Assembly: GCF_009765275.1 (NCBI RefSeq)
Contig: NZ_VOPH01000004.1
Span: forward strand, 315,810 to 379,809
Direction: 5' to 3'
DNA: 64,000 nucleotides
From: Chachezhania sediminis
Lineage (GTDB): Bacteria; Pseudomonadota; Alphaproteobacteria; Rhodobacterales; Rhodobacteraceae
The notes below the pieces were generated by a model. The model was not told the DNA's origin, did not search any database, and saw only the letters and a list, made by a program, of their open reading frames with translations. Positions 6,096-60,685 of the stretch are shown here, piece after piece; the first letter of the stretch is position 1; the number at the start of each line of letters is the position of its first letter. The translations under genes were made by a program, and so were the position numbers.

Positions 6096-7388
6096 TCAGT
6101 GCATCCCCGACGGCAGGAACAGCACGATGGCCGGGAAGGCGATCAGGAGCAGAAGGCGCAGCACGTCGGTCACCACAAAGGGCAGGACGCCCTTGAAGAT
6201 CGTGACCAGGCTGACCCGCGTGGCGATGGAGTTGATGACGAAGACGTTCATCCCCACCGGCGGCGTGATCAGGCCCAGTTCCACGGTCATCACGATGATG
6301 ATACCGAACCAGATCGGGTCGAAGCCCAGCTCCAGCACGACGGGAAAGACGATGGGAACCATCAGGATGATCATCGCCATCGCGTCCAGGAAACAGCCCA
6401 TGACGAAGAACAGAAGCATGATCAGCAAAAGCGTGCCATAGGTCCCGGCACCCAGCCCCAGCAGGTATTCCGTCAGGTTCTGCGGCACCTGCGTGATCGT
6501 CAGGAAGTACCCGAACAGCGTGGCCCCGATCAGCACGACATAGATCGCGACCGAGGTGCGCAGCGCTTCGACCAGGCTGTCCAGAAGCATCGACCAGCTC
6601 AGCCGGCCGCGCGCCATGCCGATGATCGCGGTGACGACGGCGCCGACGGCCGCGGCCTCGGTCGCGGTCGCGATGCCGAAATAGATCGACAGGATCACCG
6701 CCATGAACAGCAGCAGCACGGCCCAGATGCCCCGCAGCGATTTCAGCCCGGCCTTCAGGCTGAACGTGTCGCCGGCCGGCAGGTCGCTGCCATACCACAG
6801 GCGCACGGTGGCCATGTACATGATCACGGCCAGGATGCCGGGAACGATGCCCGCCACGAAAAGCGTGCCGATATCGGTTTCTGTGATGAAGCCATAGATC
6901 GCCAGGACGACCGAAGGAGGGATCAGGATGCCCAGCGTGCCGCCCGCGGCGATGATGCCGGTCGCGGCCTCGTCCGAATAGCCGTTCTGCTTCATCTCGG
7001 GATAGGCGATCTTGGTCATCGTGGCCGCGGTGGCGACGGAGGACCCGCAGATCGCGGCAAAGCCCGCGCAGGCCCCGACAGAGGCCAGCCCAAGCCCGCC
7101 CTTCATGCCGCCCAGCCAGGCCCGCCCGGCGCCGAACAATTCGGACGACATGCCGGAATTGGTGGCCAGGACGCCCATCAGGACGAAGAAGGGGATCAGC
7201 GTCAGGTTGAAGTCGGTAATGGTCGAGATCGGGGACTGCGCCAGGAGGTTCAGCGCCGGGCCAAAGCCCACGATGGCGCCGAAACCGCCGATGCCCACTA
7301 GGCCCATGGCCACGCCCACAGGCACCCGCAGGATCATCATTCCGAACAGGGCGGCGAAGCCTGCGAAGGTCAGGAACTCGTTGCTCAT
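6096..7388 (-). CDS. TRAP transporter large permease (DctM family)
   Basis: 430-aa polytopic membrane protein with DctM-family conserved blocks. Confidence 0.85.
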   Translation of the reverse strand: MSNEFLTFAGFAALFGMMILRVPVGVAMGLVGIGGFGAIVGFGPALNLLAQSPISTITDFNLTLIPFFVLMGVLATNSGMSSELFGAGRAWLGGMKGGLGLASVGACAGFAAICGSSVATAATMTKIAYPEMKQNGYSDEAATGIIAAGGTLGILIPPSVVLAIYGFITETDIGTLFVAGIVPGILAVIMYMATVRLWYGSDLPAGDTFSLKAGLKSLRGIWAVLLLFMAVILSIYFGIATATEAAAVGAVVTAIIGMARGRLSWSMLLDSLVEALRTSVAIYVVLIGATLFGYFLTITQVPQNLTEYLLGLGAGTYGTLLLIMLLFFVMGCFLDAMAMIILMVPIVFPVVLELGFDPIWFGIIIVMTVELGLITPPVGMNVFVINSIATRVSLVTIFKGVLPFVVTDVLRLLLLIAFPAIVLFLPSGMH

Positions 7389-22136: not shown

Positions 22137-23132
22137 TCATTTTTTTCCGTAATTCGCGCCAAGGCGCATCTGGATGTAATCGTGGCCAGTCATCGGATCG
22201 TACTTGCCGTCGGGACCGGCCAGCACGGTGTCCCTGTTGGCCTGGGCGAAGAAAGCCATGGAATAGCGCGGGCCCAGATATTCGTCGGACTTGGGCATCC
22301 GCACCCGGTGCAGCGTCGACTGCAGCCTGTCGTCGGACCAGCGCATCAGCATGTCGCCGATATTGCAGGTGATCACGCCCTCCAGCGGCGGCACGTCGGT
22401 CCAGGCGATGGCGCGGCCCCGGCTGTCCTTGAACGGGCACAGTTGCAGGCCGCCCTGACCGCCCTTCTGGTGCAACAGCGTCAGGCAGTCGAAATCGGTA
22501 TGGGCACCCGACCGCCAGCCCCTGAAATCCTCGGGCGTGGCGTCTTCCATTCCCAGATAGTGCAGCAGCCGCAGGGTGGACTGGTACTGGTCCGATTGCG
22601 GATCGTGGCCATCGATGAAGGTGTCGGGATGAAAGCCCAGCCGGTCGCCGAAACAGGACAGGACCTTCATCGCCAGGGCCCAGTTCTGACGTTCGAAGGC
22701 CAGCATGGTGGCGCGAAAGCCAGCCAGGTCCCCTTCGGACGGCCAGAGGCCCCGCATCCGCGGCAGGGTGATCTGGAAGCTTTCCTTGCGGTCCGCCGTC
22801 CCCGTCGACGGGCGCACCTGCGCCATGTATTCCCAGCCCGCATTGGTGCCGGGGCGCAGGGGCATGGTGTCCTTCAGATCCGCGGGCAGATCGAAGAAGG
22901 CCGCCGACAGGGCGAAGGCCTCGTCGATCAGGGCCTGCGGGATGCCGTGGTTTTCCAGCTGGAAGAAACCGATGCCGGTCGCGGCCTGCCACAGGTCTTC
23001 GGTGATCTCCGCCTTGCGGGCGTGGAAGTCGGACATGTCGATCCGGGGGATGTCGCGGTCGACCTCCTCGCCGTAACTGCCCATCAGGGCTTCCTTTTCC
23101 AGCTCCGCCAGTTTCGGCGTGTCGCTCGTCAT
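22137..23132 (-). CDS. 2OG-Fe(II) oxygenase (isopenicillin-N-synthase-like), second copy
   Basis: AHTDFDCLTLL...HRV triad. Start at MTSDTPK follows GGAGGAG. Confidence 0.75.
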   Translation of the reverse strand: MTSDTPKLAELEKEALMGSYGEEVDRDIPRIDMSDFHARKAEITEDLWQAATGIGFFQLENHGIPQALIDEAFALSAAFFDLPADLKDTMPLRPGTNAGWEYMAQVRPSTGTADRKESFQITLPRMRGLWPSEGDLAGFRATMLAFERQNWALAMKVLSCFGDRLGFHPDTFIDGHDPQSDQYQSTLRLLHYLGMEDATPEDFRGWRSGAHTDFDCLTLLHQKGGQGGLQLCPFKDSRGRAIAWTDVPPLEGVITCNIGDMLMRWSDDRLQSTLHRVRMPKSDEYLGPRYSMAFFAQANRDTVLAGPDGKYDPMTGHDYIQMRLGANYGKK

Positions 23133-23665
23133 CTCAGGTCTCCTCCTGCAGATGGGGAGCAATGACCGACGCCCTTCCGGTGGCGCTGACTGCTTCTACT
23201 CCGGTTGGTGATCCGGTCGTGCATGGGCGGTCTGCGCCGCGTCCGGCCGCAGCGGCAGGCCGACGGGCGATGGTCCCGCATGCCCGTGCTTCCAATGTGG
23301 CAAGCGCGGACCCGGGCCCTGCCGGAACACTGCGCTCCGGCCGTGTCACCCGTCATCCGCTGGGCAATATGCGCTGTGAACATGTTGCCGCCGGACGGGG
23401 TTGCACCGTTGTTGCTGTCGAGCATGCGTCGCCTCACCACAATAGCCCAGTCGCTGCCGCTTTCGCAGGCAACCGTCGGGAATGGATGAGCAATGACCGA
23501 GCCTGGGGCCCTTCCGCTTCTACTCGCCCCGAACCTATGCCGCAGTGCGGAAAGGCGGCCAGAACTGTCGTGACATGAAAGGCTGTGCTGCGAATAGTTG
23601 CACAAAAAATGCACATATTCCAAGTATCGATGATGAAACCCGCAGCGCCGCGTGTGCGGATCCGG

Positions 23666-27568: not shown

Positions 27569-27813
27569 GATGTCCCGTCTGCCCCCTGGATGCCCCTTGG
27601 AATGCCCCGTGGCAGCTTTACCGCCCTGTGGCCATGCGGGACAGGGGCCTTGAGGGGGCCTTGAGGGGGGGGGCTGACGAGAGCAGGTTGCCACCGACAG
27701 GTCGTGTGGGCCAACGGGGGCTTTCCATTGGACCTGCGCGCTGCCGTCGCGCGGCGCGCAGGTCCGGGGCATGGTATCGCATCAGGGAACGGATCTGAAA
27801 CGGGACGACAGGC

Positions 27814-41363: not shown

Positions 41364-41401
41364 AAACGCCGGGCTTCGGCCCGTTTCGACACCCGAGTCG
41401 G

Positions 41402-41438
41402 AAAGGCCCCGGACGATGTTCCGGGGCCTTTCATTTTC
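41402..41438 (+). terminator. Rho-independent terminator after the HU-like gene
   Basis: AAAGGCCCCGG-(8-nt loop)-CCGGGGCCTTT 11-bp stem followed by CATTTTCC. Confidence 0.7.
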
Positions 41439-41494
41439 CTGTCCGCAGGCTCTTGCGGACCCCGCCGCCTGCCGCTACATACCCGGTCCACGGC

Positions 41495-41569
41495 GGGTGA
41501 TTAGCTCAGTGGTAGAGCGCTTCGTTCACATCGAAGATGTCGGGGGTTCAAATCCCTCATCACCCACCA
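41495..41569 (+). tRNA. tRNA-Val (anticodon CAC)
   Basis: Cloverleaf folded by hand: acceptor GGGTGAT/ATCACCC, D-arm GCTC/GAGC, anticodon stem CTTCG/CGAAG with loop TTCACAT, T-arm GGGGG-TTCAAAT-CCCTC, discriminator A, encoded CCA. Confidence 0.85.
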
Positions 41570-41890
41570 TGATTTCATAGACCGATCCATGATCTGCGAA
41601 ATGTTCCGAAGTCCCCATAAGCTGTGGTCTCCCGTTTCCGGCATGCAAAACCCGGCACATCGACCGCGTCCTGCATATGTTCGGGCAGATGGCGCCCACA
41701 TGCGGAAAACGTGACTCCCGTACTGGAATGGGCCAGGATCTGGGCTGTGGCGGGACAGGGGGTTTTTCAGTATGCGACACGCAGAGTTGCAGCAGAGACG
41801 TTGGGTTGTGGCGGCCGCCTTCTGGTGACGAACGCGTCTCGCCAGACCGGTATCGTCGGCAGCGACGCGTAGATCTTCACGAGGCGTCAG

Positions 41891-42430
41891 GTGAAGCCAA
41901 AACTATATCTGATGGGTGCTTCTTGCTCGGGCGTGTCGACGCTTGGCGCGGTCCTGGCCGAACGACTAGATGTCCAACAGATTGACGTCGACAATTTCTA
42001 TTGGATGCCGACCGACCCGCCGTTCAGCGTCAAACGAGATCCCGAAGACCGTGTCCTGCTGATCAGCGAGCGCCAACGCCGGAGCGAGGGCTGGGTGCTG
42101 ACCGGATCGTTCATCGGTTGGGGCGATCCGCTGGTCGTGAATGTCGATCTGATCGTCTTCATCCATACGCCAACCCCGTTACGCCTGAAACGACTGGACG
42201 CGCGTGAGGCGCTCCGTCATGGAAGCCGGATTCTTCCCGGCGGCGACATGCACCGGTCACATCTGGCGTTCCGTGACTGGGCCTCTCGTTACGACGATCC
42301 GTCATTCACCGGACGAAACCTCGCACAGCATGAACGGTGGCTGGCCACGCAAACCGCCCCGGTTCTTCGCCTCGATGGCGAACGCTCGCCCCAGGATCTT
42401 GCAGGCAGGGTCGTGGACGCGCTGCCCTGA
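41891..42430 (+). CDS. P-loop NTPase (adenylate-kinase/shikimate-kinase-like small AAA-family kinase)
   Basis: Walker A LMGASCSGVSTL directly after the start. 179 aa. GTG start with an upstream GAGG. Lower GC than the flanking sequence. Confidence 0.6.
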   Translation: MKPKLYLMGASCSGVSTLGAVLAERLDVQQIDVDNFYWMPTDPPFSVKRDPEDRVLLISERQRRSEGWVLTGSFIGWGDPLVVNVDLIVFIHTPTPLRLKRLDAREALRHGSRILPGGDMHRSHLAFRDWASRYDDPSFTGRNLAQHERWLATQTAPVLRLDGERSPQDLAGRVVDALP

Positions 42431-42499
42431 GGTCTTCCCCATTTCCCGAACATATTTGGGCGTCGCCAAGCTAGCCTGTCGATCATGCTGCTGCCTGTC

Positions 42500-42678
42500 A
42501 GGCCGGCCATGCTGCCCTGTGCCTGCCGCTTCCAGGTGTCGATCGGCGTTTCATGCACGCCATTGCCGCCAGCTCGGCTTTCGTCGTCTCGCCACGAATG
42601 GTTCCAGGCGGCGCCTTCTGCCTTGAATTCGGCGCCGTGAATCTTCCGTTTGCCAGCCTCGCTGTTCGTCCTCGCCAC
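42500..42678 (-). pseudogene. IS3-family transposase OrfA remnant (HTH_Tnp_1 N-terminal fragment)
   Basis: MARTNSEAGKRKIHGAEFKAEGAAW...GVHETPIDTWKRQAQG resembles the IS3 OrfA N-terminus (RRKFSAEFKAEAV...L..W.KQ). There is no downstream OrfB and the rest of the frame degenerates. Confidence 0.4.
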
Positions 42679-42822
42679 GGTTGCTGGCAGGCTTGGCAGG
42701 GTGCCCGGTCTTCGGGGACGACCTCTGTTTGCAGGGCTGTTAATGGCGGACGCAACTTAATCGACTGGTAAGGTCACGGTGCTATTTCTGCGGGACGAAA
42801 AGATTCCTTTGGAAAGGCCGCA

Positions 42823-43119
42823 ATGCGTGTCGTTGCAATGATATGTTTGGTCATGGGACCCCTGATCTCGGCGCCAGTGCTGGCTCTGACAGGGCGCCCT
42901 GTTCAGACGACAAGCACACTTCTTGTTATCGGGCCGATGAACGGTTTGCCTGACCTGGTCAGCCGCGCGGGCGGACGTCCCGTCGGACCGACGCGTGCAC
43001 CGTTTGCCCTGCTTGCCGTGGCAGACACTCATCCTGAAGACTTTCCAGAGCGTCTGAATGCCGAAGGCGCTTGGTTGGTCCTCGACGGCGCAATCGCAGC
43101 GCAACTCTGCGGAGTTTAG
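42823..43119 (+). CDS. Small secreted/periplasmic hypothetical protein (98 aa)
   Basis: Signal peptide MRVVAMICLVMGPLISAPVLALTG. The stop is 1 nt before the MCP start codon. Confidence 0.45.
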   Translation: MRVVAMICLVMGPLISAPVLALTGRPVQTTSTLLVIGPMNGLPDLVSRAGGRPVGPTRAPFALLAVADTHPEDFPERLNAEGAWLVLDGAIAAQLCGV

Positions 43120-43120
43120 A

Positions 43121-44680
43121 ATGACCAGCAACACCTCCTCACTTGCGGTCGCGCAGGCAAATGGCCTCCGCGTAATCGGCTATGTCAACATCCTGCTGGC
43201 GCCCCTCCCGGCGTGCGGTGCCTGGTTGGCGGGCTTGTCGCCCTGGCCGTTTCTGGCAGTATCCTTGGCAATTGTCACAGTCGCCCTCGGCCTTCAGCGC
43301 CGGGGCGGGGGTATTGCTCGGATCGCAGTGTCGCTAGGGGCAATGGGCCAGTTGCCGCTGCTGACGGCAGCCCTGGCCGGAAACCCGTGGCAGCTCGACT
43401 CCCACCTCATCTATTTTGCCGTGCTGGCCGGTCTGGTTATCCTGCAAGACCAGCGGGCACTTCTCGCCGCTTCAGGGCTCGTCATTGTTCATCACGCGAT
43501 GCTGACGTTCTTTCTGCCGACGCTGATTTACCCAAGCAGCGGCTTGCTGCTTGATCTGGGGCGCCTGGCGCTGCACGGCACCGTTTGGGTGGCGGAAACC
43601 ATGGGTCTTTCCTACCTGCTGCACATGCAGCTGAAACAACGCGCCCAGATCGAGCAAGAGGCGACACAGCTGTCCGATGCGTTGACCAGCTCGCAAGAGT
43701 TGCAACTGAACCTGACGCGGAAGGAAGCCGAACAGCTCAATGTCATGGAACAGTTCAGCGCGGCTTTGACCAAATTGGCAAATGGAGACCTTGCAACACG
43801 GATCGAGACCGTGTTTCCGGAACAGTTCGAGCCGCTGCGAAACGAATTCAACAGCGCGGTCAATTCTCTGTCGGTTGCCATGACCCGCGTCCAGGATACC
43901 GCAGGCTCAATCAAGCTGGACACAATGAGTATCGCGTCGGCATCCGAACAACTTGCCCAGCGGACCGAGCATCAGGCGAACGCTCTGGGAAGCGTAACCT
44001 CGCGTATCGACAACATCAGCGAAGTCATGTCCGCCGCATCGGAAGACGCCCGGAAGGCAGCGGTGACGACAGCCGGGACAAGGGTGGATGCCGAAAACGG
44101 CATGAAAGTGGTCGACGGTGCGCTGGACGCGATGGATCAGATCAAGGAAAGCTCCGACCGCATCCAGCTGGTTGTCGATATGATCGAAGACGTGGCGTTT
44201 CAGACCAATCTTCTGGCGCTCAACGCCGGTGTCGAGGCCGCGCGCGCCGGGTCGGGGGGGCAAGGGTTCGCGGTTGTCGCTACGGAAGTTCGCGCGCTTG
44301 CCGGTCGTTCGTCGGATGCCGCCAAGGAAATCAGTGTTCTTATCAGCGACAGTGCGCGCCAGGTCCGAAACGGTGTGCAGCTTGTCGACAACGCGGGTGA
44401 GGTACTTCGCGGTGTTCTGGATGCGGTCCGCAAGGCATCTGACTCCATGCAGAACATCGCATCTACGGTGGGCACCCAGTCAAAGGGAATCGCCGATCTC
44501 AAGCACACCATGGGTGAGCTTGATCAGCTTACACAGCAGAATGCGGCAATGTTTGAAGAAACCTCTGCTGCAACGACGGCTTTGACCGACGCGACCAATT
44601 TGCTGAGCGAAGTTGTGGCGGAATTCCAGATTGCCTCGGCGCAGGATGCTTCAGTGCCACATCTCCGTAAGATCGCCTAG
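43121..44680 (+). CDS. Methyl-accepting chemotaxis protein with a multi-TM membrane-embedded N-terminal sensor
   Basis: HAMP-like segment, then the MCP signalling domain (LLALNAGVEAARAGSGGQGFAVVATEVRALAGRS). The N-terminal about 170 aa are 4-5 TM helices with no periplasmic domain. A GGAG Shine-Dalgarno precedes the start. GC is about 58% against a background of about 66%. Confidence 0.85.
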   Translation: MTSNTSSLAVAQANGLRVIGYVNILLAPLPACGAWLAGLSPWPFLAVSLAIVTVALGLQRRGGGIARIAVSLGAMGQLPLLTAALAGNPWQLDSHLIYFAVLAGLVILQDQRALLAASGLVIVHHAMLTFFLPTLIYPSSGLLLDLGRLALHGTVWVAETMGLSYLLHMQLKQRAQIEQEATQLSDALTSSQELQLNLTRKEAEQLNVMEQFSAALTKLANGDLATRIETVFPEQFEPLRNEFNSAVNSLSVAMTRVQDTAGSIKLDTMSIASASEQLAQRTEHQANALGSVTSRIDNISEVMSAASEDARKAAVTTAGTRVDAENGMKVVDGALDAMDQIKESSDRIQLVVDMIEDVAFQTNLLALNAGVEAARAGSGGQGFAVVATEVRALAGRSSDAAKEISVLISDSARQVRNGVQLVDNAGEVLRGVLDAVRKASDSMQNIASTVGTQSKGIADLKHTMGELDQLTQQNAAMFEETSAATTALTDATNLLSEVVAEFQIASAQDASVPHLRKIA

Positions 44681-44914
44681 CTGATGCCCGCTTCCGCAGC
44701 CGGTTCATCTGGAAGCGGCGGACCGAAGCGGCGATGGGGGGCGGGCGCAGGAAGACGGGTAGGCTTGCGAAGTGCCCGTTGGGTCGCGAACCCAGGGTTC
44801 CGGGTTTCAGTCCAACGGGTCAGAGGGATCTGCAGCAGTCCGGTAGCCGGCGGTCCGGGTCGTCAGGCCGGGAGAAGGGGACGGACCTACGCGTAGCCGC
44901 CGCCGCCTTTTCGT

Positions 44915-45418
44915 TCAGTCCCAGACGTCGGGGGCATTGGCGACCCGCAGCTTCGACGCCAGGGCGCCCAACGCAATCCGATGCACGATCTCGGACGGCG
45001 CGGTGCAAAGATCGCCGATGACGGTTACATCGAACTTTGCCGCGGCGTCCGACATGGCTGTGAACACGACGCAATTCTGTGTCATCATCCCGCAGACCAG
45101 AAGGTCGGTGGCCCCCTCCAGATGCCGGGCGAGATCCGTATCCTGAAACGCATCGGCGAACGTCTTGGTCACGACCGGGGCGTCGCCGACGGCCGCCAGG
45201 ATTGCCGGACGAATGGAAACGCCATCCCCGCCGGCGGCGAACAGCCCGGTCTCTGCCTGCGATACATGACGGATCGCGATCACGCGATCGCCGGCCCGCC
45301 GGGCACGTCCGATTGCAGCGACGACACGTCCTTCGACCGCCTCTGCATCATGCAGCGGCAGGACGCCGCCCGGGAAATAGTCATTCTGAATATCGATGAC
45401 GAGAAGCGCGCGGCTCAT
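44915..45418 (-). CDS. Isochorismatase-family cysteine hydrolase
   Basis: ALLVIDIQNDY...catalytic Cys in LLVCGMMTQNCV. 167 aa. Confidence 0.8.
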   Translation of the reverse strand: MSRALLVIDIQNDYFPGGVLPLHDAEAVEGRVVAAIGRARRAGDRVIAIRHVSQAETGLFAAGGDGVSIRPAILAAVGDAPVVTKTFADAFQDTDLARHLEGATDLLVCGMMTQNCVVFTAMSDAAAKFDVTVIGDLCTAPSEIVHRIALGALASKLRVANAPDVWD

Positions 45419-45511
45419 CTGGGGCCTCCTTTTGGGTCCGGTATTCGACCTACTATGCCGATCCGGCGGTTTGCAGTGGCCCGAAGGTCATGTTTCAATT
45501 ATTTTGGGCCA

Positions 45512-46450
45512 ATGCGCATCGCCGTCATCGCCTACAAGGGCATAAGCCCCTTCATGCTCTCCGTGCCGCTCGCGGTCTTTGGCGAGCCCTTTCTGGCCAT
45601 GGACCACGAAGTGATGGTCTGCGCTGAAGAACGCCGCATCCCGACGACGACCGGCGGTGTCCTGATCGAAACAGATCATGGGCTCGATGCCACGGAAACG
45701 GCGGATATTGTCATTCTTCCTGGTTGGCGGGATGCGGAGGAGCCGGTTTCCGGACCGCTGCTGGAGCAGCTCCGTGCCGCTCATGGGCGGAGCGCCATCG
45801 TGATCGGCCTGTGTCTCGGGGCTTTTGGTCTGGCCGAAGCGGGCCTGTTGAACGGCCGGCGTGCGACGACCCACTGGGCGAAGGTCGGGGAATTTGCCGC
45901 GCGCTTTCCCGCCGTTCGGACCGATCCGCAGGCGATCTTCGTCGATGAAGGTCAGGTGCTGACCTCGGCGGGCATTGCCGCCGGGCTTGATTGTTGCCTG
46001 CATGTGCTTGCCCGGCTTTCCGGCGTGGCAACGGCCAATCGGGTGTCGCGCCAGCTTGTCGTTGCGCCGCAGCGCGCGGCCGACCAGCCGCAGTTGCTGG
46101 ACCGTCCTGCGCCGGCCTCCTCGGCGGAACGCCGGGTCGCCGGTATCCTCGAACGGCTCTGGTCCGACCCGGTGACAAGTCCCTGCCTGGATGCTTTGGC
46201 GGCCCAGTCGGGTATGAGCCGCCGCAGCCTGACCCGGCACATCCGGGCGCGCACCGGTGGCAGCCTGGGGGGATGGATCCGTCGGGCGAGGGTCGCGCGG
46301 GCCCAGGACGCCCTGTTGCAAGGGTCCCGGGGGATTGAACGGATCGCCGCTCTGTCCGGCTTTCCCGACGCCCAATCGCTGCGCAGGGCGTTTCGGAGCG
46401 AACTGGGCATGACACCCGTGCAGTGGCTCAGCCGGCAACGATTGGGCTGA
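45512..46450 (+). CDS. GlxA-family transcriptional regulator (DJ-1/PfpI + AraC HTH)
   Basis: IGLCLGAFGLAEAGLLNGRRATTHW plus a C-terminal AraC HTH. Divergent from the isochorismatase gene. Confidence 0.8.
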   Translation: MRIAVIAYKGISPFMLSVPLAVFGEPFLAMDHEVMVCAEERRIPTTTGGVLIETDHGLDATETADIVILPGWRDAEEPVSGPLLEQLRAAHGRSAIVIGLCLGAFGLAEAGLLNGRRATTHWAKVGEFAARFPAVRTDPQAIFVDEGQVLTSAGIAAGLDCCLHVLARLSGVATANRVSRQLVVAPQRAADQPQLLDRPAPASSAERRVAGILERLWSDPVTSPCLDALAAQSGMSRRSLTRHIRARTGGSLGGWIRRARVARAQDALLQGSRGIERIAALSGFPDAQSLRRAFRSELGMTPVQWLSRQRLG

Positions 46451-47199
46451 GCTGCCACCCGCCGGCAGGTGCCAGAACAGGTCCAGGAGCCGATCCGGGA
46501 CGACGCGGCCACCTGTCATCCATATCGACCGAAGCGCCTGCCGCACCCAGCCCACGGCGGTAGTTCGGGCGAGGCGCTGCGAACGATCCTTGCCGAAAAG
46601 GAATAGGGTTACGCCGCCTATTTCGAAATGAAATTTCGTCCAATGTACCCTCGCGCGAAGGACAGAAGATTTACGTCGAGATTGTAAGATTTCAGATAAT
46701 ATTCAGCCGCCAAATCGCTCGAATCTGATAAATTGAAACTGTCTTCGGCAGTGCGAATGGACATTGCAGATCAATGGAAATGACCTTTATTTCGAGTGTC
46801 TGTAGAAAGCGGGCTGCACCATCACCTGAGATAAGATCCAAGCGTAGCGTTTTCGGATCTGGATTGAGGCAAAGATGTGCCGAACGCGTCCGGAGTGCAT
46901 CGAGCCTTCATAGGTGCAATTGACGGGGAGGAGCCGCGTCGGGGTTTGCAGCGCCGGGCCAATTGGGCTGCTTCACAGGATCGATACTTGATCGCTTTGG
47001 CCGGCGGCCGGGGATGCCTTGGTGTTGGGGACGGGAACGGTCGCTTTGCCGTGACGGAGATTTAATTTCAGATGCGCGTTTTTTTTTGGAACGTGGAATC
47101 CGGAATGGCAGTGTGACGCATGGGAATTTGGAAAAGTCTGAATTTCGCCGCCGTCCGTGTACGCTACGTATCATAGGGTTTTGTGAGGGGAATTGAGAA

Positions 47200-48625
47200 A
47201 TGGCGGCAAATCTTTCCTGGAGTGGTTTCAACTGGGCGACACCGCAGGCGAATTTCATCAGCCAGGATTTCGTTGTCAGTGCCACGCATATGAATCACGG
47301 CGACATCGGCGTGGACTACTCCGGCTTTATTGCCTGCCTTTCGCCTGATGCGGTTTGGGACATGTCAGACAGCTTTGTCTTGGTGTCAGGGCTTGTCGGT
47401 CTGACTCCCGGTGCGTCGTACCGGTCCAACGTAGACGAGGCTGCCCATTTGCAATCCGGGCCGTTGCCCGGTGACTACTACATGCTGGTCGTGGCCGACG
47501 CGGATAACTACATCGATGAGGAGGATCAGACCGACAACCTGTTGGCAATCGGGTTCACGATCCTGCCAACATCTGATCTGGTCCCGACGGCCCATGACTT
47601 TTTCGAAACGCCGCCCCTGTTCTTCCGCGGCGACGGGACCGAGACATTGTCCCTGACCGTCTCAGACGAGCCCGCGCCCGCCTACGTCCGGATCGGTGTG
47701 GATGGAACGTCTGCCGACTATGTGGTGGCGGGCTTATGCGCCAGGGGGATCAGGACGAAGGCCAGGCGGTGGTCTCCGGCGTTGGGAGAGACCTGTCCCT
47801 GACGGGCAACGCGTGGAAATACCTTACGGTCGATGCGCAGATCACGGCGGACACAGTCCTGTCCTTCGATTTCTCGAGTAGCGATCCGGGCGAGATCGCG
47901 GCCATCGGTTTCGATGCGGACAGCAGATTCAACGGAAGCGGAAGGGATTTCCCGCATTTCTTCCAACTGGGCGGAACCGAATTCCGCAAGAACATGGCGG
48001 CGCATCTGGACTATGCCGGCAACGGCGACACCCGTCATTTCGAGATCGCGGCAGGCACGTTCTTCCAGGGTGATTTTGCCAATCTTGCCATGGTACCTGA
48101 CGACGATGCGGACGGCTCCGGCATGGTTCAGTTCTCGAATATCGAACTTCTGCGCGATCCGTTCTCGGTGAATGTGACCAGCCAGGGCGGGGCGGCCAAC
48201 GACAAGGGGGCCGCTCGAGAATTCGTGGGAGGCGGGGGCTCGAACTGGCGTCCAATGCCCGGAAGGCGATCCTGGCAGGGCAGGATCTGGAGGTCGACGC
48301 CAATACCGTGCTGTCGGTCCGGTTCCGCAGCGATGCCGAGGGCGAAATACAAGGTATCGGCCTGGACTGTGACACCGGTCTCGACAATGACCTCTTCTTC
48401 CAGTTTGCCGGGACGCAACAGTGGGGGCACTCCGGCGGCGAATACGAGATCGGCAGTGGTTACAAGACATTTGAGATCGATGTCGGCAGCATCCATCAAG
48501 GCACGTTCGACCGGATCGTCCTGGGCATGGGGAGCGACGCACCGGGCGAAGTCGGGAACGCCTATTTCGCAGATATCGCCCTGACAGGTCTGGGCAAAAG
48601 CGATGACACACTGGTGATCCTCTAG
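47200..48625 (+). pseudogene. Secreted/cell-surface tandem-repeat protein gene broken by two -1 frameshifts at G5 runs (function unknown)
   Basis: Three consecutive ORFs in frames 1, 0 and 2 (47200..47802, 47736..48584, 48308..48625). They encode two homologous modules of about 100 aa: ...TVLSFDFSSSDPGEIAAIGFDAD... and ...TVLSVRFRSDAEGEIQGIGLDCD.... Both frame breaks map to GGGGG runs (about 47742-47746 and about 48234-48238). Adding one G at each restores one continuous reading frame of about 475 aa. Confidence 0.6.
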
Positions 48626-49065
48626 CCGGGACCGACCCGGAAGGTGCTCCAGCTGCGCGTTCAGCGGAATCGCCGTGACGGGTGCGCATGGCTTGACCGC
48701 CAGCGCGGTGCCCTGTCGATCCCCGGGCGTCGGGGCCGGCCTACGACGGTCGGTGATCGGCCTGCTTGCCACACTGGACCGGAACGCCATCCTGACGCCC
48801 GCTGAAGTCGGCGAAGCGGCGACAGACCTCGTGCCGGACGCCGAAGCTGGTTGCGGCTGGTGAGCGGTCGAAGAGCTCCGCCCGGGCTGCGGTTGCCCGC
48901 ACTTCCGCCGGATGCCGGAAATCGAGATCCAGCCGCATTGCCGGAAACCGCAAGGAACGGGTCGCCGAGCCTATGTCGAAACGGACAATCATCGCTTCGA
49001 AATGCCGCCCAGTCGGCCGAACCGGAGTACGATAATTGCAATCGCCATCGGCAACTCATCGCGCC

Positions 49066-49986
49066 ATGTCTCTCTTGGAATGGTCCATGTTGCTGGCACT
49101 GGCCGGCGTTTGGGGCGGGTCATTTTTCTTCAATGCGATTGCCGTACGCGAGTTGCCTGTCTTCACGGTGGTGGTCTGCCGCGTCGCCCTGGCGGCAATG
49201 ATCCTGCTGGCGATCATGCGTCTAAGCGGTCAGCGCCTGCCGCGCGGTCGGAGGATCTGGGGGGCGTTTTTTGCAATGGGGCTCCTGAACAACGCGATCC
49301 CCTTTACCCTCATCGTCTGGGGGCAGAAGGACATAGCATCCGGCGTCGCCTCGATCCTGAATGCATCGACCCCAATGTTCACGGTGATTTTCGCGCACTT
49401 TCTGACCGACGACGAACGCATGACAGGTGGCAAGGTCCTTGGGGTCCTGGTCGGTTTTGCCGGTGTCGCTGTCATGATCGGTCTGGACGCGTTGCGCGGC
49501 ATTGGCGCCGGTCTTTTTGCTCAGTTTCTGTGCCTGGGGGGCGCCATCTCATATGCTTTGGCCGGCATCTATGGCCGACGGTTCCGTGATAGGGGTGTCA
49601 GCCCTATCGGAACGGCCACAGGTCAGGTCATGGCCTCCAGCCTGATCATGTTGCCGCTTGTCGCCGTCGTGGACCGCCCCTGGACCCTGCCGATGCCGAG
49701 CCCTGAAGCAATCGGCGCCGCCATAGGTGTTGCTGCGATTTCGACGGCATTGGCTTACGTGCTTTACTTTCGCATCCTCGCCACGGCCGGAGCAACGAAC
49801 CTGTTGCTCGTGACCTTCCTCATCCCGGTCAGTGCAATTCTTCTGGGCACGGCATTCCTTGGAGAAACCATGCTGCCGCGCCATTTCGTCGGGATGGCTT
49901 TGATCTGTGCCGGCCTGGTCGCCATCGACGGCCGACTGATTTCGACCTGGAGCGGCACTGCACGCGGGGGAAGGGAAAGACCCTGA
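49066..49986 (+). CDS. DMT-superfamily (EamA-like) transporter
   Basis: Two EamA repeats, 10 TM helices. ATG at 49066; the track ORF begins at an in-frame TTG at 49036. Confidence 0.8.
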   Translation: MSLLEWSMLLALAGVWGGSFFFNAIAVRELPVFTVVVCRVALAAMILLAIMRLSGQRLPRGRRIWGAFFAMGLLNNAIPFTLIVWGQKDIASGVASILNASTPMFTVIFAHFLTDDERMTGGKVLGVLVGFAGVAVMIGLDALRGIGAGLFAQFLCLGGAISYALAGIYGRRFRDRGVSPIGTATGQVMASSLIMLPLVAVVDRPWTLPMPSPEAIGAAIGVAAISTALAYVLYFRILATAGATNLLLVTFLIPVSAILLGTAFLGETMLPRHFVGMALICAGLVAIDGRLISTWSGTARGGRERP

Positions 49987-50664
49987 GCTCAGGACCCATT
50001 GATTTGGGTGGGCGTCCATGAGCCACGGCTTGAAAACGAGCGGTGAGCATGTCTGGTCTACTCCGGTCGAGCGACGCAAAGATGGCGCGTCCGAAACCCT
50101 GCTTGCCGAAGCCACACGGGAAGCCACGGGGCGTTGATCGGCGTGTCCTGAGAGGAATTGTCCTTATCAATCGCAATGGCTTGGGTCGGCGCGAGGCCCC
50201 AAGGAAATGCGGCCCTCACAAGACACGTCTCGGAACCGTTGCAAGATGTGTAGCGATAAAGGCGTCTTCGCCCGGATCATGATGGGTTTGGCCTTTATGC
50301 TGGACTCCGCATGATGCTGGACACCGCATGGCACGGACCTCTCCTGAGGAGGAAGGTGGAACGCAACCATGATCCGCCGAGCCGGTTTAACACGTCGCTC
50401 GACAGATGAAGAAATTGCCTCCCGACGATGATTGAATTTCGTGCAAGCGCTCGGTGCAGTCTGTCGGCCGTGCCGCAGCGGTGACCCATGCGGGCAGCAT
50501 CCGATGCGCCCGGCCTGTTGCCGCGAATAGAAACAGCACCCTCCCGCCGCACTGTGGCCCTTCGCAACGGACATTCACGACGGAGGACCGGCGTCGGCCT
50601 CGCTGAATGTCCGGAAACAACTTTTCCACGATGAACTCCTCGATCCATGTGATATTTCAACAGC

Positions 50665-57711: not shown

Positions 57712-58914
57712 TTGAACCGTCCAGACTTCTACCGCTTTCACCAGGGCGACCGGATCCTGCCGTTCGAACCCGCCGAATACGATGCCCGCCTGTCCGGTCT
57801 GCGCCGGTCGATGGTGGCCGAGGGTGTCGGCGCCTGCGTCTTCACCTCGATGCAGAACATCGCCTACTATTCGGGCTTCCTTTATTGCAGCTTCGGACGG
57901 CCTTTCGGCCTGGTGGTGACCGCGACCGACAGCGTCACGATCAGCGCGGGCATCGATGCGGCCCAACCCTGGCGACGCTGCCATGGCGACAACATCACCT
58001 ATACCGACTGGCAGAGGGACAATTTCTGGCGCGCGATCCTGTCGGTTGCGGGCGCGGGCAGGGTGGTAGGCTATGAAGGCGACCACCTGACGCTGGCGCA
58101 GAAGGGGCCGCTGGATTTCTTCCTAAAGCCTTCGGCGACAGTCGACATCGCCCCGGCCACGATGCGCCAGCGCATGTCGAAGTCCCAGGCCGAAATCGCG
58201 CTGATCCGCCATGGGGCGCAGGTCGCCGATATCGGCGGATATGCCATGCGGGACGCGATCCGCGAAGGCGCGCGGGAAATCGACGTGGCCATGGCCGGCC
58301 GCGACGCGATGGAGCTGGAGATCGCCAGGCGCTTTCCCGAAGGCGAATACCGCGACACCTGGGTCTGGTTCCAGTCGGGCATCAACACCGACGGCGCCCA
58401 TAACCCGGTGACGGGCCGCATCCTGCAACGCGGGGACGTCCTGTCGCTGAACGCCTTTCCCATGATCTCGGGCTATTACACCGCACTGGAACGGACCCTG
58501 TTTCTGGGCGAGGTCGACGATGCCTCGCTGAAGATCTGGGAGGCGAATGTCGCAGCCCACGAATACGGAATGTCGCTGCTGAGGCCGGGCCGGTCCTGCG
58601 CCGAGGTGACAGAGGCCATCAACGCCTTCTTCGCCGACCGCGACCTGCTGCAGTACCGCACCTTCGGGTACGGACATTCCTTCGGGATCCTGTCCCACCA
58701 CTACGGGCGCGAGGCCGGGTTGGAACTGCGCGAGGATATCGACACGGTGCTGGAGCCCGGCATGGTCATCTCGATGGAGCCGATGCTGACCATCCCCGAA
58801 GGCCGGCCCGGCGCGGGCGGCTACCGCGAACACGATATCCTGGTCATAACCGAGAACGGGAACGAGGATATCACCGGCTATCCCTATGGGCCGGGGTTCA
58901 ACGTGGTGGGCTGA
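57712..58914 (+). CDS. Creatinase (creatine amidinohydrolase), M24 family, TTG start
   Basis: Near-collinear match to bacterial creatinase (FTSMQNIAYYSGFLYCSFGRP, GQPWRR, VWFQSGINTDGAHNPVT, YRTFGYGHSFG, LEPGMV.SMEPM). An AAGGAG Shine-Dalgarno sits 7 nt before TTG 57712. No in-frame ATG at the homologous N-terminus. Confidence 0.8.
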   Translation: MNRPDFYRFHQGDRILPFEPAEYDARLSGLRRSMVAEGVGACVFTSMQNIAYYSGFLYCSFGRPFGLVVTATDSVTISAGIDAAQPWRRCHGDNITYTDWQRDNFWRAILSVAGAGRVVGYEGDHLTLAQKGPLDFFLKPSATVDIAPATMRQRMSKSQAEIALIRHGAQVADIGGYAMRDAIREGAREIDVAMAGRDAMELEIARRFPEGEYRDTWVWFQSGINTDGAHNPVTGRILQRGDVLSLNAFPMISGYYTALERTLFLGEVDDASLKIWEANVAAHEYGMSLLRPGRSCAEVTEAINAFFADRDLLQYRTFGYGHSFGILSHHYGREAGLELREDIDTVLEPGMVISMEPMLTIPEGRPGAGGYREHDILVITENGNEDITGYPYGPGFNVVG

Positions 58915-59035
58915 CCTGGGTTTTTCGGCCGGGGGGGGCCGGTCGAGCCGGACAGCCTTCCTGTGGTTTTCGCGTTGGAACGGCCTAGATTGATGAACAA
59001 AGAGCACGAGAACATTCAGGTGGACGTCCAAGCCC

Positions 59036-60685
59036 ATGCAAAGCCAAGCGAAATCCAGAATTGCAGTCGTCGGGTTCGGCCCCCGCGGCCTTGGCGCGCT
59101 GGAAGCGCTGGCAGCCCGGCTTCCGCATGCGTGGCACCCGCTGGCGGTAGAGATCTTCGAACCGTTCCCCGCGCGCGGCGCGGGCCCGAATTTCGACCCG
59201 GCGGAAAGCCCTTTCTGCCGGCTGAACATTCCCTTGCGCGATATAGACATCCGCCCGCCGGACATCGGGGCCTGCGGGTCCTTCGCCGACTGGCTGCCCG
59301 GTCCCGTGGACCCGGACGTCTTTCCGCCACGGACCGAAATCGGCCGCTACCTGGAAGCGCGGGTCAGGGATCTGTGCAAAGACAAGGCGCTGTCCCTGAC
59401 ATTCCATGCAGATCATGTGCTGGCGGCCGAACAGGTGGGCACGGGCTGGCGGATGAAGGCGGGCGACGCTTGGCATGGCCCCTATGACGAGGTTCTGCTG
59501 ACGGTCGGCCAGCCGAAGGTTTCGCCCGACGATCAGCTGGCCGAATGGCAGGCCCATGCAGATGAAACGGGCGCCGCGCTGGCCGATGCCTATCCCGCCC
59601 GCGATCTGGCCCGGAGGACAGAGGACTGGACAGGCAAGACCGTCGCGATCCGCGGTCTGGCGCTGTCGGCCTTCGACGTGCTGCGCGTCCTGACCGAAGC
59701 GCAAGGCGGCCGGTTCGTGGATGGCGTCTATATCCCCTCGGGGCGCGAGCCTGCGCGCATCCTGCCGTTCTCGCTGGACGGACGACCGCCGTTCCCGAAG
59801 CCGGAAACGGAAGGGATCGACGCGCTGTTCGAACCGACAGAGGCAGAGACCGGGTGCTTTCAGGACCATATCGCCAGGGCCGCGGCGGCAGATCCGGGCA
59901 CTGCGCGCGAGCTGATAGGCGCGGCCCTTTTGCCGGTCCTGGAACGGATCTGGAAAAAGGCCGGCGGCGCGGCCGACAAGGCGGCCATCGAGGACTGGCT
60001 GAGGACCGAATGGACCGACCCCGGCACGCAGGAAATCGGCGGACCGGAAAAGATCCTGCACGACGGGATCGCCATGGCCGAAGGGCGCGTGCCACCCGGC
60101 ATCGGCTACACCGCAGGTCAGGTCTGGCGGAAATGGCAGGACTCGCTGCGGTCGGGCTTCAACCCCGCCGACACGGCGCCTGAAACGGCCGAACTGATCA
60201 TCGGCTTCGACGAGGGGCTGAAGCGCTATTCCTACGGGCCGCCGGTGTCGTTCAGCCATGAACTGGCTGCGCTGATCCGGGCCGGGATCGTCGATCCGGG
60301 CCTGTCCGCAGATCCGGGGATCGAGCTGGTCTCCAACGGCTGGAAGCTGAGCGCGGACGGGCGCGAAGCCGTGGCCGAGGTGATGATCGACGCTGTCCTG
60401 CCGTCACCCGATCTGTCCATCGTGACCGATCCGCTGGTGACCGGTCTGGTGTCCGACGGTCGCCTGTCCCCGGTTGCGGACGGTATGGGCGCCCGGACAA
60501 CAGCGGATGGCACCGTGCTGGGCACGGACGGCACGCAATCCCGGGGGCTGACCTTCCTGGGCCGTCTGGCGCTTGGAAGCGTGATCGCCGCCGATTCCCT
60601 CCAAGACTGTTTTGGCGCGGCGGCCTCTCGCTGGGCCCTCGGGGTAATCGCGCGGATCGGGGCGCCTCGGACCGGCGACCGATAG
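59036..60685 (+). CDS. FAD/NAD(P)-binding-domain protein (PF13454-like)
   Basis: N-terminal GxGxxG (RIAVVGFGPRGLGAL), 549 aa, no further assignable motif. Confidence 0.6.
   Translation: MQSQAKSRIAVVGFGPRGLGALEALAARLPHAWHPLAVEIFEPFPARGAGPNFDPAESPFCRLNIPLRDIDIRPPDIGACGSFADWLPGPVDPDVFPPRTEIGRYLEARVRDLCKDKALSLTFHADHVLAAEQVGTGWRMKAGDAWHGPYDEVLLTVGQPKVSPDDQLAEWQAHADETGAALADAYPARDLARRTEDWTGKTVAIRGLALSAFDVLRVLTEAQGGRFVDGVYIPSGREPARILPFSLDGRPPFPKPETEGIDALFEPTEAETGCFQDHIARAAAADPGTARELIGAALLPVLERIWKKAGGAADKAAIEDWLRTEWTDPGTQEIGGPEKILHDGIAMAEGRVPPGIGYTAGQVWRKWQDSLRSGFNPADTAPETAELIIGFDEGLKRYSYGPPVSFSHELAALIRAGIVDPGLSADPGIELVSNGWKLSADGREAVAEVMIDAVLPSPDLSIVTDPLVTGLVSDGRLSPVADGMGARTTADGTVLGTDGTQSRGLTFLGRLALGSVIAADSLQDCFGAAASRWALGVIARIGAPRTGDR

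What the first reader, a model, noticed from the sequence alone, without database searches (positions are those of the whole stretch)
47200..48625. Two independent -1 frameshifts in one gene, both at G5 homopolymers repairable by +1 G
A tandem-repeat protein of about 475 aa (two roughly 100-aa beta-sandwich-like modules plus an acidic N-domain) is split across three frames. Each break lies exactly at a GGGGG run. Inserting one G at each site restores a single ORF with a clean inter-repeat alignment (GGGG-LELASNARKAIL...). Two possibilities follow. It may be slipped-strand phase variation or pseudogenisation of a surface or secreted protein. Or the assembly systematically under-calls G homopolymers; a G8 run at 58933-58940 and other G runs make that testable.
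Basis: seen in the sequence. Interest (0 to 1): 0.65.

Follow-up and report, generated by a model that had tools for sequence, protein, structure and literature searches.

The report
Frameshift-broken secreted-protein gene, probably a pseudogene
One gene of the marine bacterium Chachezhania sediminis, encoding a likely secreted sugar-binding-type protein, is broken into three reading frames by small slips in short runs of G; it is most likely a recently inactivated gene, which is ordinary.

Summary
Window 47200-48625 (+) is one gene of about 475 codons read in three successive frames. A codon-usage segmentation places the frame switches at 47733/34 and 48240/41. These are the only same-strand frame changes in the 64 kb that lack a stop codon.

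The pieces encode a weak CARDB-like N-domain and two copies of a ~145-aa beta-sandwich module. That module occurs in about 2,700 protein clusters, always in one uninterrupted frame, and has no Pfam or NCBIfam model. NCBI annotates the fragments as two separate CDSs.

- **Break 2** is an unambiguous frameshift, best placed at G5 48234-48238.
- **Break 1** lies in 47728-47748.

Systematic G under-calling is not supported: 71 other G/C runs of 5 or more, including G6 and G7, sit in 48 intact coding segments. G5/G6 is below known phase-variation tract lengths. Neither site has a slippery heptamer or a downstream RNA structure.

My estimates: young pseudogene ~0.6, local sequencing error ~0.25, phase variation or recoding under 0.1. 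Raw reads were not available. Interest is low.

The parts
47200..47802 (+). Fragment 1 (frame pos%3=1): ATG start, CARDB-like N-domain plus linker. Real coding runs only to about 47730-47748. The last ~20 codons (CARGIRTKARRWSPALGETCP*) are an out-of-frame tail. NCBI annotates it as 'CARDB domain-containing protein' (P0012, 200 aa).
   Evidence: (PF07705 CARDB E 3e-4, 21.4 bits, below the gathering score of 22.7).
47728..47748 (+). Lesion zone 1 (frame 1 -> 0). It contains G3 47730-47732 and G5 47744-47748. A 1-nt deletion in either run, or one inserted G in each, explains the shift.
   Evidence: Viterbi switch at 47733/34; codon likelihood profile; comparison of repairs by HMM and codon log-odds.
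47736..48584 (+). Fragment 2 (frame pos%3=0). NCBI annotates it as 'hypothetical protein' (P0001, 282 aa). Real coding runs from about 47745 to about 48238. The rest (SNWRPMPGRRSWQ...) is an out-of-frame tail.
47748..48158 (+). Module 1: a ~140-aa beta-sandwich (CBM-like) domain with the family motifs LxLTGNAWK, TVLSFDF, GEIxAIGFD, FFQLGGT, DDDAD and FSNI.
48234..48238 (+). Lesion site 2 (frame 0 -> 2): the G5 run that is the most likely site of a 1-nt deletion. Homology only bounds the lesion to 48160-48239, which also holds G4 48189-92 and G5 48206-10.
   Evidence: Viterbi switch at 48240/41; codon likelihood optimum 48239-48245, with G5 48234-38 at -2.5 and G5 48206-10 at -7.9 ln units. HMM scores cannot discriminate the sites.
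48239..48625 (+). Fragment 3 (frame pos%3=2): module 2 (more divergent: ASNARK in place of GNxWK, GSDAP in place of DDDAD) and the C-terminus ...GKSDDTLVIL, stop at 48623-25. The first start codon in this frame is GTG 48308, which lies inside the module. The first 23 codons can therefore only be read as a continuation of an upstream frame.
   Evidence: (80-81 bits, E ~2e-26).
47186..47192 (+). Purine-rich Shine-Dalgarno-like GAGGGGA, 8-14 nt before the ATG at 47200. An in-frame TGA lies at 47194-47196.
   Evidence: Read directly from the sequence; the stop-to-stop ORF begins at 47197.

Best explanation
This is a recently inactivated gene (a young pseudogene) of Chachezhania sediminis. The ancestral gene encoded a protein of about 475 aa: a CARDB-like N-domain followed by two tandem ~145-aa CBM-like beta-sandwich modules. 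The protein was probably exported, and I infer a binding role for the modules.

Replication slippage in short G runs changed the frame twice, in the two inter-domain linkers:
- Once within 47728-47748, at either G3 47730-32 or G5 47744-48.
- Once most probably at G5 48234-38.

Translation from the ATG at 47200 now stops at 47802 and yields only the N-domain with a junk tail. The downstream modules are not made as part of that protein.

Shown:
- The three-frame coding signal.
- The lack of any start codon for the first 23 codons of module 2.
- The uninterrupted state of homologues.
- The absence of other frame breaks in the window.

Inferred:
- That the lesions are in the organism's DNA rather than in the assembly.
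- That they are recent.
- The export and binding function.
For: 1. An independent codon-model segmentation finds frame switches at 47733/34 and 48240/41. These are the only same-strand switches in 64 kb where the upstream frame's stop does not coincide with the switch; the stops lie 69 and 344 nt further on.
2. Homologous modules (P0002-P0011, then 2,671 cluster representatives) occur as 1-8 tandem copies in single continuous ORFs, so the split is specific to this locus.
3. Frame 2 has no ATG, GTG or TTG between 48101 and 48308, although module 2 begins by 48239.
4. 0 of 71 other G/C runs of 5 or more in 48 intact coding segments break frame, against 2 of 4 in this gene (P = 0.002). Lesions clustered in one gene are what relaxed selection gives, not what uniform error gives.
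5. The gene looks like a dispensable accessory gene:
   - Its only sequence relatives, within the reach of the word-indexed search, are the module homologues at 28-37% identity. Each of the two searches otherwise returned only the locus's own annotated fragment, and the N-domain has no relative at all.
   - Its GC3 is 0.735, against a typical 0.80-0.89 for core genes of the window.
   - It lies in a lower-GC stretch downstream of tRNA-Val.
6. The repaired frame has no stop in 475 codons and keeps its codon periodicity, so the inactivation is young.
Against:
- Both lesions can be explained as one missing G each, and nothing else in the gene looks decayed. That is also exactly what two consensus errors in an intact gene would look like.
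- No close orthologue exists, so neither the ancestral tract lengths nor dN/dS can be determined.
- The sequencing platform of the assembly could not be established.
Confidence: 0.6

Rival explanations
1. Local sequencing or assembly error: the gene is intact in the organism, and the consensus dropped one G at two short G runs, for example in a low-coverage or poorly polished patch.
For: - Both frame changes can be explained as a single missing G in a G run, and both go in the same direction.
- The repaired ORF is otherwise pristine: no stops, retained codon bias, and both modules match the family profile.
Against: - No other frame break occurs in 48 coding segments that carry 71 G/C runs of 5 or more, including G6 and G7 runs. 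A further G7 at 44254 sits inside an unbroken MCP domain.
- Two errors within 500 nt and none in the remaining ~48 kb of coding sequence is improbable under a uniform error rate (P ~0.002).
- At site 1 the simple 'G5 should be G6' repair creates a TTA codon, which is 1 of 7,488 host codons.
Confidence: 0.25
2. Slipped-strand phase variation: the G runs act as reversible ON/OFF switches for a surface or secreted protein, and the sequenced clone is OFF at both.
For: - A +1 G at each run restores the frame.
- The product belongs to a family of extracellular proteins, the class that is often phase-variable.
Against: - The tracts are G5 (G6 when ON). This is below the 7 or more (C. jejuni, PMC4965091) and the G9 cut-off or G7 minimum (Neisseria, PMC5953494) associated with switching.
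- G/C runs of 5 or more are at background density in this 60-67% GC DNA: 113 per 64 kb, with 4 in the gene against 2.5 expected.
- Needing two independent tracts ON at once would make the ON state very rare.
- Site 1 may not be at the G5 at all.
Confidence: 0.05
3. Programmed recoding: the full-length protein is made by -1 ribosomal frameshifting or transcriptional slippage at both G runs.
For: At site 1 a P-site tRNA-Gly on GGG (47746-48) could re-pair perfectly with GGG in the -1 frame (read from the sequence).
Against: - Neither site has an X_XXY_YYZ heptamer.
- At site 2 a -1 slip from GGG (48234-36) lands on CGG, a mismatch.
- The 88 nt downstream of each site fold no better than shuffled sequence (z = +1.10 and -0.70).
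- No homologue is split.
- Two successive low-efficiency events would give negligible yield.
- G5 is far shorter than known transcriptional-slippage tracts (my own knowledge).
Confidence: 0.02
4. Two genes at junction 1: the 200-aa CARDB ORF and the ORF starting at ATG 47736 are separate overlapping genes, as NCBI annotates them, and only junction 2 is a lesion.
For: - An ATG sits at 47736, exactly where the coding signal switches frame.
- Profile homology crosses junction 1 only weakly, by +4.7 bits and only in the two-insertion repair.
Against: - It would require a 67-nt same-strand overlap.
- In that overlap, frame 1 reads an Arg-rich junk-like tail and scores worse on codon usage.
- The protein would begin at the GDQD motif, lacking the preceding strand that family members have (consensus ..ATVSSYGGSSQD..).
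- There is no good Shine-Dalgarno sequence before 47736.
- Family modules normally sit inside larger multi-domain proteins.
Confidence: 0.08

Closest known systems
Frameshift pseudogenes created by indels in short homopolymer runs (ordinary bacterial gene decay)
   Same: - One-base frame changes sit in mononucleotide runs.
- Several lesions fall in one gene while the neighbours are intact.
- Homologues elsewhere are uninterrupted.
- The fragments are annotated as separate short CDSs.
   Different: The lesion has not been verified in reads. No orthologue is available to show the ancestral tract length. Apart from the frameshifts there are no other signs of decay, so the event is very young, if it is real.
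Simple-sequence-repeat phase variation (contingency loci) of Neisseria, Campylobacter and Haemophilus
   Same: An intragenic polyG run whose length sets the reading frame of a gene for an extracellular protein.
   Different: - The tracts are only 5 nt, against at least 7-9 in those systems (PMC4965091, PMC5953494).
- The runs are at genomic background frequency.
- Two tracts would both have to be ON.
- Length polymorphism has not been shown.
Homopolymer under-calling in 454, Ion Torrent, Nanopore or PacBio CLR assemblies
   Same: Apparent 1-nt deletions in G runs that split ORFs.
   Different: Such artefacts are spread across the genome and get worse with run length. Here G6 and G7 runs in coding sequence are all in frame, and the only breaks are in one gene.
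Programmed -1 frameshifting (dnaX, IS3-family transposases)
   Same: A downstream domain lies in the -1 frame relative to the upstream one.
   Different: There is no slippery heptamer and no stimulatory structure. The split is not conserved in homologues. Two sites occur in one gene.
Beta-sandwich carbohydrate-binding modules (e.g. CBM8 7t7z, CBM29 1gwk, CBM11 1v0a, CBM30 2c24)
   Different: Sequence identity is 9-18%. The module matches no Pfam or NCBIfam model. Ligand binding is untested.

Membership tests
Frameshifted pseudogene | Homologues encode the same domains in one uninterrupted frame | tested here: met
   P0002-P0011 carry 1-4 modules in single ORFs. The 150 best of 2,671 representatives have 2-8 matched stretches per protein.
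Frameshifted pseudogene | Coding signal continues into another frame with no stop/start gene boundary | tested here: met
   The Viterbi switches lie 69 and 344 nt before the upstream frames' stops. There is no start codon in frame 2 before 48308.
Frameshifted pseudogene | The lesion is present in the organism's DNA (reads, resequencing or other isolates) | not testable with these tools
   No reads were available. P0001 is on one NCBI contig only and is not in the encoding-contig index. DNA patterns found no second copy in the metagenome or genome collections.
Homopolymer sequencing artefact (systematic) | Frame breaks recur at other homopolymers of equal or greater length across the assembly | tested here: not met
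   0 of 71 G/C runs of 5 or more (13 of length 6, 1 of length 7) in 48 coding segments break frame. This covers the 64-kb window only.
SSR phase-variable (contingency) locus | Repeat tract at or above the length that gives high-frequency slippage (polyG of 7-9 or more) | tested here: not met
   The tracts are G5. Thresholds come from PMC4965091 (abstract) and PMC5953494.
SSR phase-variable (contingency) locus | Tract-length polymorphism within or between populations | not testable with these tools
   There is a single assembly and no reads.
SSR phase-variable (contingency) locus | Tracts over-represented relative to genomic background | tested here: not met
   4 runs of 5 or more in 1,426 nt against 2.5 expected from 113 per 64 kb.
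Programmed -1 ribosomal frameshift | Slippery heptamer X_XXY_YYZ in the zero frame | tested here: not met
   Site 1 reads GCC AGG GGG ATC and site 2 reads GGC GGG GGC TCG. Neither fits the pattern.
Programmed -1 ribosomal frameshift | Downstream stimulatory RNA structure | tested here: not met
   Folding z-scores are +1.10 and -0.70 against shuffled sequence.
Programmed -1 ribosomal frameshift | The frameshift is conserved among homologues | tested here: not met
   The homologues are single ORFs.
CARDB domain (PF07705) | Score at or above the Pfam gathering threshold | tested here: inconclusive
   21.4 bits against a cut-off of 22.7, E 3e-4, residues 66-115 only. NCBI names the fragment 'CARDB domain-containing protein'.
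Carbohydrate-binding module (beta-sandwich CBM) | Beta-jelly-roll or sandwich fold similar to solved CBMs | tested here: met
Carbohydrate-binding module (beta-sandwich CBM) | Sequence membership in a curated CBM family | tested here: not met
   Module 1 has no Pfam hit, and only stray single-member hits occur among the 17 aligned modules. There is no NCBIfam hit.
Carbohydrate-binding module (beta-sandwich CBM) | Demonstrated glycan binding | not testable with these tools
   This needs an experiment.

The most novel reading that the evidence does not exclude
The split is functional rather than decay. The two short G runs would either act as a two-site reversible switch, or be decoded by slippage (transcriptional or ribosomal) at both sites. 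The cell could then make the CARDB-only product, an intermediate, or the full three-domain secreted protein from one gene. That would be phase variation or recoding on tracts far shorter than those currently recognised.
Probability: 0.06. Interest if true: 0.6.

Novelty: new member of a known kind. Interest (0 to 1): 0.15.

Why it matters
The main value is an annotation correction. Two NCBI CDSs, 'CARDB domain-containing protein' (200 aa) and 'hypothetical protein' (282 aa, about 40% of it out-of-frame junk), are fragments of one disrupted gene and should be a single pseudogene feature.

The case is also a worked example of how clustering of lesions can separate gene decay from homopolymer error when no reads are available.

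The more useful by-product is the module itself. It is a ~145-aa CBM-like beta-sandwich domain present in about 2,700 protein clusters, and in tandem in the best-scoring ones. It is found in secreted proteases, RTX proteins and T9SS cargo. It has no Pfam or NCBIfam model and could be curated as a new domain family.

Tried and rejected
1. Homologue profiles did not pinpoint the lesions. Both conserved module cores lie entirely within one frame, so the HMMs only bound the sites. Site-2 alternatives differ by 2 bits or less.
2. The inter-repeat alignment was no more precise. It starts just after site 2 (G-G/R-D/G-L-x-L) and does not cross either junction.
3. No close orthologue or second copy was found:
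   - A genome-contig scan with the repaired protein gave 173 pattern hits, none confirmed.
   - DNA patterns tolerant of tract length found nothing in metagenome contigs or genome contigs. The source genome itself was not retrieved.
   - The look-up of encoding contigs for P0001 found nothing on record.
4. The sequencing platform was not found in the literature. Only two papers mention the genus, and neither title or abstract concerns its genome sequencing; I did not open them.
5. AlphaFold on the full repaired protein without an alignment gave pLDDT 31, which is uninformative.
7. Two apparent 'same-frame stop' junctions at 6096 and 20951 turned out to be ordinary boundaries. From reading the translations, they look like a TRAP-type permease followed by a MarR-like regulator, and a substrate-binding protein followed by an ABC ATPase.
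8. A possible frame irregularity at 54.8-55.4 kb resolves into a fumarase C gene and a separate RHH_4 gene.
9. Rfam found nothing near the locus. The terminator and promoter scans gave nothing above shuffle expectation.

Full report
**What is in the sequence**

Window 47200-48625 (+) holds three overlapping ORFs in three different frames:
- 47200-47802, frame pos%3=1.
- 47736-48584, frame 0.
- 48308-48625, frame 2, open from 48101.

G5 runs lie at 47744-47748, 48206-48210, 48234-48238 and 48423-48427. Adding one G at 47744-48 and one at 48234-38 yields a 1,428-nt ORF of 475 codons without a stop.

Third-position GC follows the same path. It peaks at pos%3=0 up to about 47750, at pos%3=2 up to about 48200, and at pos%3=1 after that.

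I trained a codon model on 16 long ORFs of the window and ran it as a 7-state Viterbi over all 64 kb. It placed the switches at 47733/34 and 48240/41 without any prior information. For every other same-strand frame change in the window, the upstream frame's stop codon coincides with the switch. Only these two do not: their stops lie 69 and 344 nt further on.

**What the gene is**

The source organism is Chachezhania sediminis, a Rhodobacteraceae/Roseobacteraceae-group alphaproteobacterium. NCBI carries two of the fragments as separate proteins on one 478-kb contig:
- The 200-aa first ORF, as 'CARDB domain-containing protein' (P0012).
- The 282-aa middle ORF, as 'hypothetical protein' (P0001).

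So the locus is annotated as two genes, not as a pseudogene.

The N-terminal ~120 residues give a sub-threshold CARDB match (PF07705, 21.4 bits against 22.7). Within the reach of the word-indexed search they have no other sequence relatives.

The rest consists of two copies of a ~140-145-aa module. The copies are 34% identical to each other, E 9e-13. Distant homologues at 28-37% identity carry 1-4 tandem copies of this module in single ORFs.

A profile of 17 modules found 2,671 cluster representatives in 1.84 billion proteins (1,375 at E up to 1e-30). The best-scoring ones are proteins of 400-6,000 aa with 2-8 matched stretches. Partner domains are all extracellular:
- S8 subtilase.
- Serralysin-type M10 with RTX repeats.
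- The T9SS sorting tail.
- Ig-like and cadherin-like domains, beta-helix and CAP.

No Pfam or NCBIfam model covers the module.

- CBM11, CBM30 and a hyaluronan-binding module.

The intact protein would therefore be a small secreted or surface binding protein. It has no N-terminal signal peptide. It ends in ...DDTLVIL, and the RTX-bearing homologue P0003 ends in ...NGNLIL. From memory, an acidic residue followed by hydrophobic residues at the C-terminus is typical of some type-1-secreted proteins. This is a lead, not a test.

**Where the lesions are**

Both conserved module cores lie wholly inside one frame. Module 1 covers profile positions 15-150 in frame 0, and module 2 covers positions 20-147 in frame 2. 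The frame changes are therefore in the two linkers, and homology only bounds them.

*Site 2.* Frame 0 must be read through FSNIELLRDP (about 48160), and frame 2 from LELASNARK (48239). That 80-nt zone contains G4 48189-92, G5 48206-10 and G5 48234-38.
- Profile scores do not discriminate between these sites.
- Codon likelihood peaks at 48239-48245. G5 48234-38 is 2.5 ln units below the peak, G5 48206-10 is 7.9 below, and the G4 is about 15 below.
- Frame 2 has no start codon before GTG 48308, which lies inside the module. Site 2 is therefore an unambiguous frameshift lesion.
- Linker 2 is about 8 residues shorter than linker 1 and the homologues, and it lacks the SY..G.QD motif. A larger 3n+1 deletion cannot be excluded.

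*Site 1.* The zone is 47722-47748, with DYVV in frame 1 and GDQD in frame 0. It holds G3 47730-32 and G5 47744-48. I compared three repairs:

| Repair | Junction sequence | HMM (bits) | Codon log-odds |
|---|---|---|---|
| (b) +G in the G3 | ..AGLMRQGDQD.. | 142.3 | +0.7 |
| (c) Remove one G from each run, i.e. two insertions | ..AAYAPGDQD.. | 147.2 | -3.0 |

- Repair (a) scores badly on codons because it needs TTA (1 of 7,488 host codons, 0 in the rest of the gene) and AGG.
- Repair (c) restores the family's conserved aromatic residue (consensus ..VSSYGGSSQD..).
- Longer runs are more mutable and one event is more parsimonious than two. After weighing those priors, the three cannot be separated.
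- 'Exactly at a G5' is therefore plausible but not shown for site 1.

**Artefact, decay, switch or recoding?**

*Systematic G under-calling.* The window has 113 G/C runs of 5 nt or more. Of these, 71 lie well inside 48 coding segments whose frames are intact (57 of length 5, 13 of length 6, one of length 7), and none breaks a frame. In the target gene, 2 of 4 do. A further G7 at 44254 lies inside an uninterrupted MCPsignal match, residues 341-492 of the chemoreceptor.

If two breaks are placed at random among the 75 runs, both fall in this gene's four runs with P = 6/2775 = 0.002. Uniform homopolymer error, or systematic under-calling, is therefore not supported within this window.

*Gene decay.* Lesions concentrated in one gene are what relaxed selection produces. 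The gene also looks dispensable:
- It has no close orthologue anywhere, within the reach of the word-indexed search.
- Its GC3 is 0.735, against a typical 0.80-0.89 for core genes of the window.
- It sits in a lower-GC stretch after tRNA-Val 41495-41569.
- Its neighbours are unrelated and intact: MCP, isochorismatase, GlxA/AraC, EamA, and a cNMP-gated Na/H exchanger.

The absence of stops in the repaired frame says the event is young.

*Local sequencing error.* This cannot be excluded without reads. I give it about 0.25.

*Phase variation.* This is unlikely. G5/G6 is below the tract lengths associated with switching: 7 or more in C. jejuni (PMC4965091, abstract seen), and a G9 cut-off in Neisseria with G7 the shortest reported switch (PMC5953494). 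The runs are at background density, and two tracts would both have to be ON.

*Programmed recoding.* This is very unlikely:
- Neither site has an X_XXY_YYZ heptamer.
- A -1 slip at site 2 mispairs.
- The downstream 88 nt fold no better than shuffled sequence (z = +1.10 and -0.70).
- No homologue is split.

**Two genes at junction 1?**

An ATG sits at 47736, right at the switch. The annotated two-gene reading therefore deserves mention. Against it:
- It needs a 67-nt same-strand overlap in which frame 1 reads an Arg-rich tail with poor codon usage.
- The protein would start at the GDQD motif without the preceding strand.
- There is no convincing ribosome-binding site before 47736.

I give it about 0.08. 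Even then the downstream gene is frameshifted at site 2.

**Verdict**

This is a real, correctly spotted three-frame split of one gene. It is most probably a young frameshift pseudogene that current annotation lists as two CDSs. The kind of event is well known, so interest is low. What remains undecided is real lesion against local consensus error, and that needs reads or Sanger sequencing. The side observation of a large uncurated CBM-like domain family is more useful than the frameshifts themselves.

Noticed in passing
window 47748-48158 and 48239-48583; proteins P0002-P0159: The ~145-aa module (motifs LxLxGNxWK, TVLxFDFxS, GEIxGIGxD, FQLxGTQ, YFTG, NDDDA, FSNIxLYE) defines a large family: 2,671 clusters at 50% identity. 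The 150 best-scoring proteins carry 2-8 matched stretches. It occurs in secreted proteases, RTX proteins, T9SS cargo and Ig-rich giants. It has a CBM-like beta-sandwich fold and no Pfam or NCBIfam model. It is a candidate for curation as a new domain family.
   Followed up: partly
window 47200-47802 and 47736-48584: NCBI annotates the fragments as two independent proteins: P0012 'CARDB domain-containing protein' and P0001 'hypothetical protein'. About 115 of the 282 residues of P0001 are out-of-frame translation of module 2.
   Followed up: yes
window 27665-27673 (G9) and 58931-58938 (G8): The two longest G tracts of the window are intergenic. The G9 lies in the divergent promoter region between a membrane-protein gene (- strand, Met at about 27568) and an FAD-oxidoreductase-like gene (+ strand, ATG 27814); those gene labels are my own reading of the translations. 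The G8 lies between a gene ending at 58914 and one starting at 59036. These lengths, unlike G5, are in the range where slippage could modulate transcription.
   Followed up: no
window 46560-47199, including T9 at 47079-47087: A 640-nt AT-richer stretch (GC about 0.40-0.55) with no convincing ORF lies upstream of the gene, with a T9 run 113 nt before the ATG. Short minus-strand ORF fragments in several frames (46618-46962) might be remnants of another decayed gene.
   Followed up: no
window 41400-50600: The region downstream of tRNA-Val (41495-41569) has lower GC (0.60-0.63, against 0.63-0.70 for the rest of the window) and weaker codon bias. No ORF there passed my filter requiring GC3 above 0.75. 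It holds accessory-type genes: an MCP, an isochorismatase, a GlxA/AraC regulator, the split gene and an EamA transporter. It may be a horizontally acquired island, but no integrase was seen.
   Followed up: partly
window 23152-23206 (-): A xanthine (NMT1) riboswitch aptamer (RF03054, 46.9 bits, gathering score 36) lies immediately upstream of the minus-strand gene at 22153-23133.
   Followed up: no
window 48596-48622; P0003 C-terminus: The repaired protein ends in ...GKSDDTLVIL, and the RTX-repeat homologue P0003 ends in ...DNGNLIL. An acidic residue followed by a hydrophobic C-terminal tail is reminiscent, from memory, of type-1 secretion signals. No T1SS genes are nearby.
   Followed up: no
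Genome-contig collection: Neither peptide patterns nor an exact 30-nt DNA pattern from this locus retrieved the source genome from the GTDB-representative collection. The C. sediminis record seems to be absent or masked there.
   Followed up: partly
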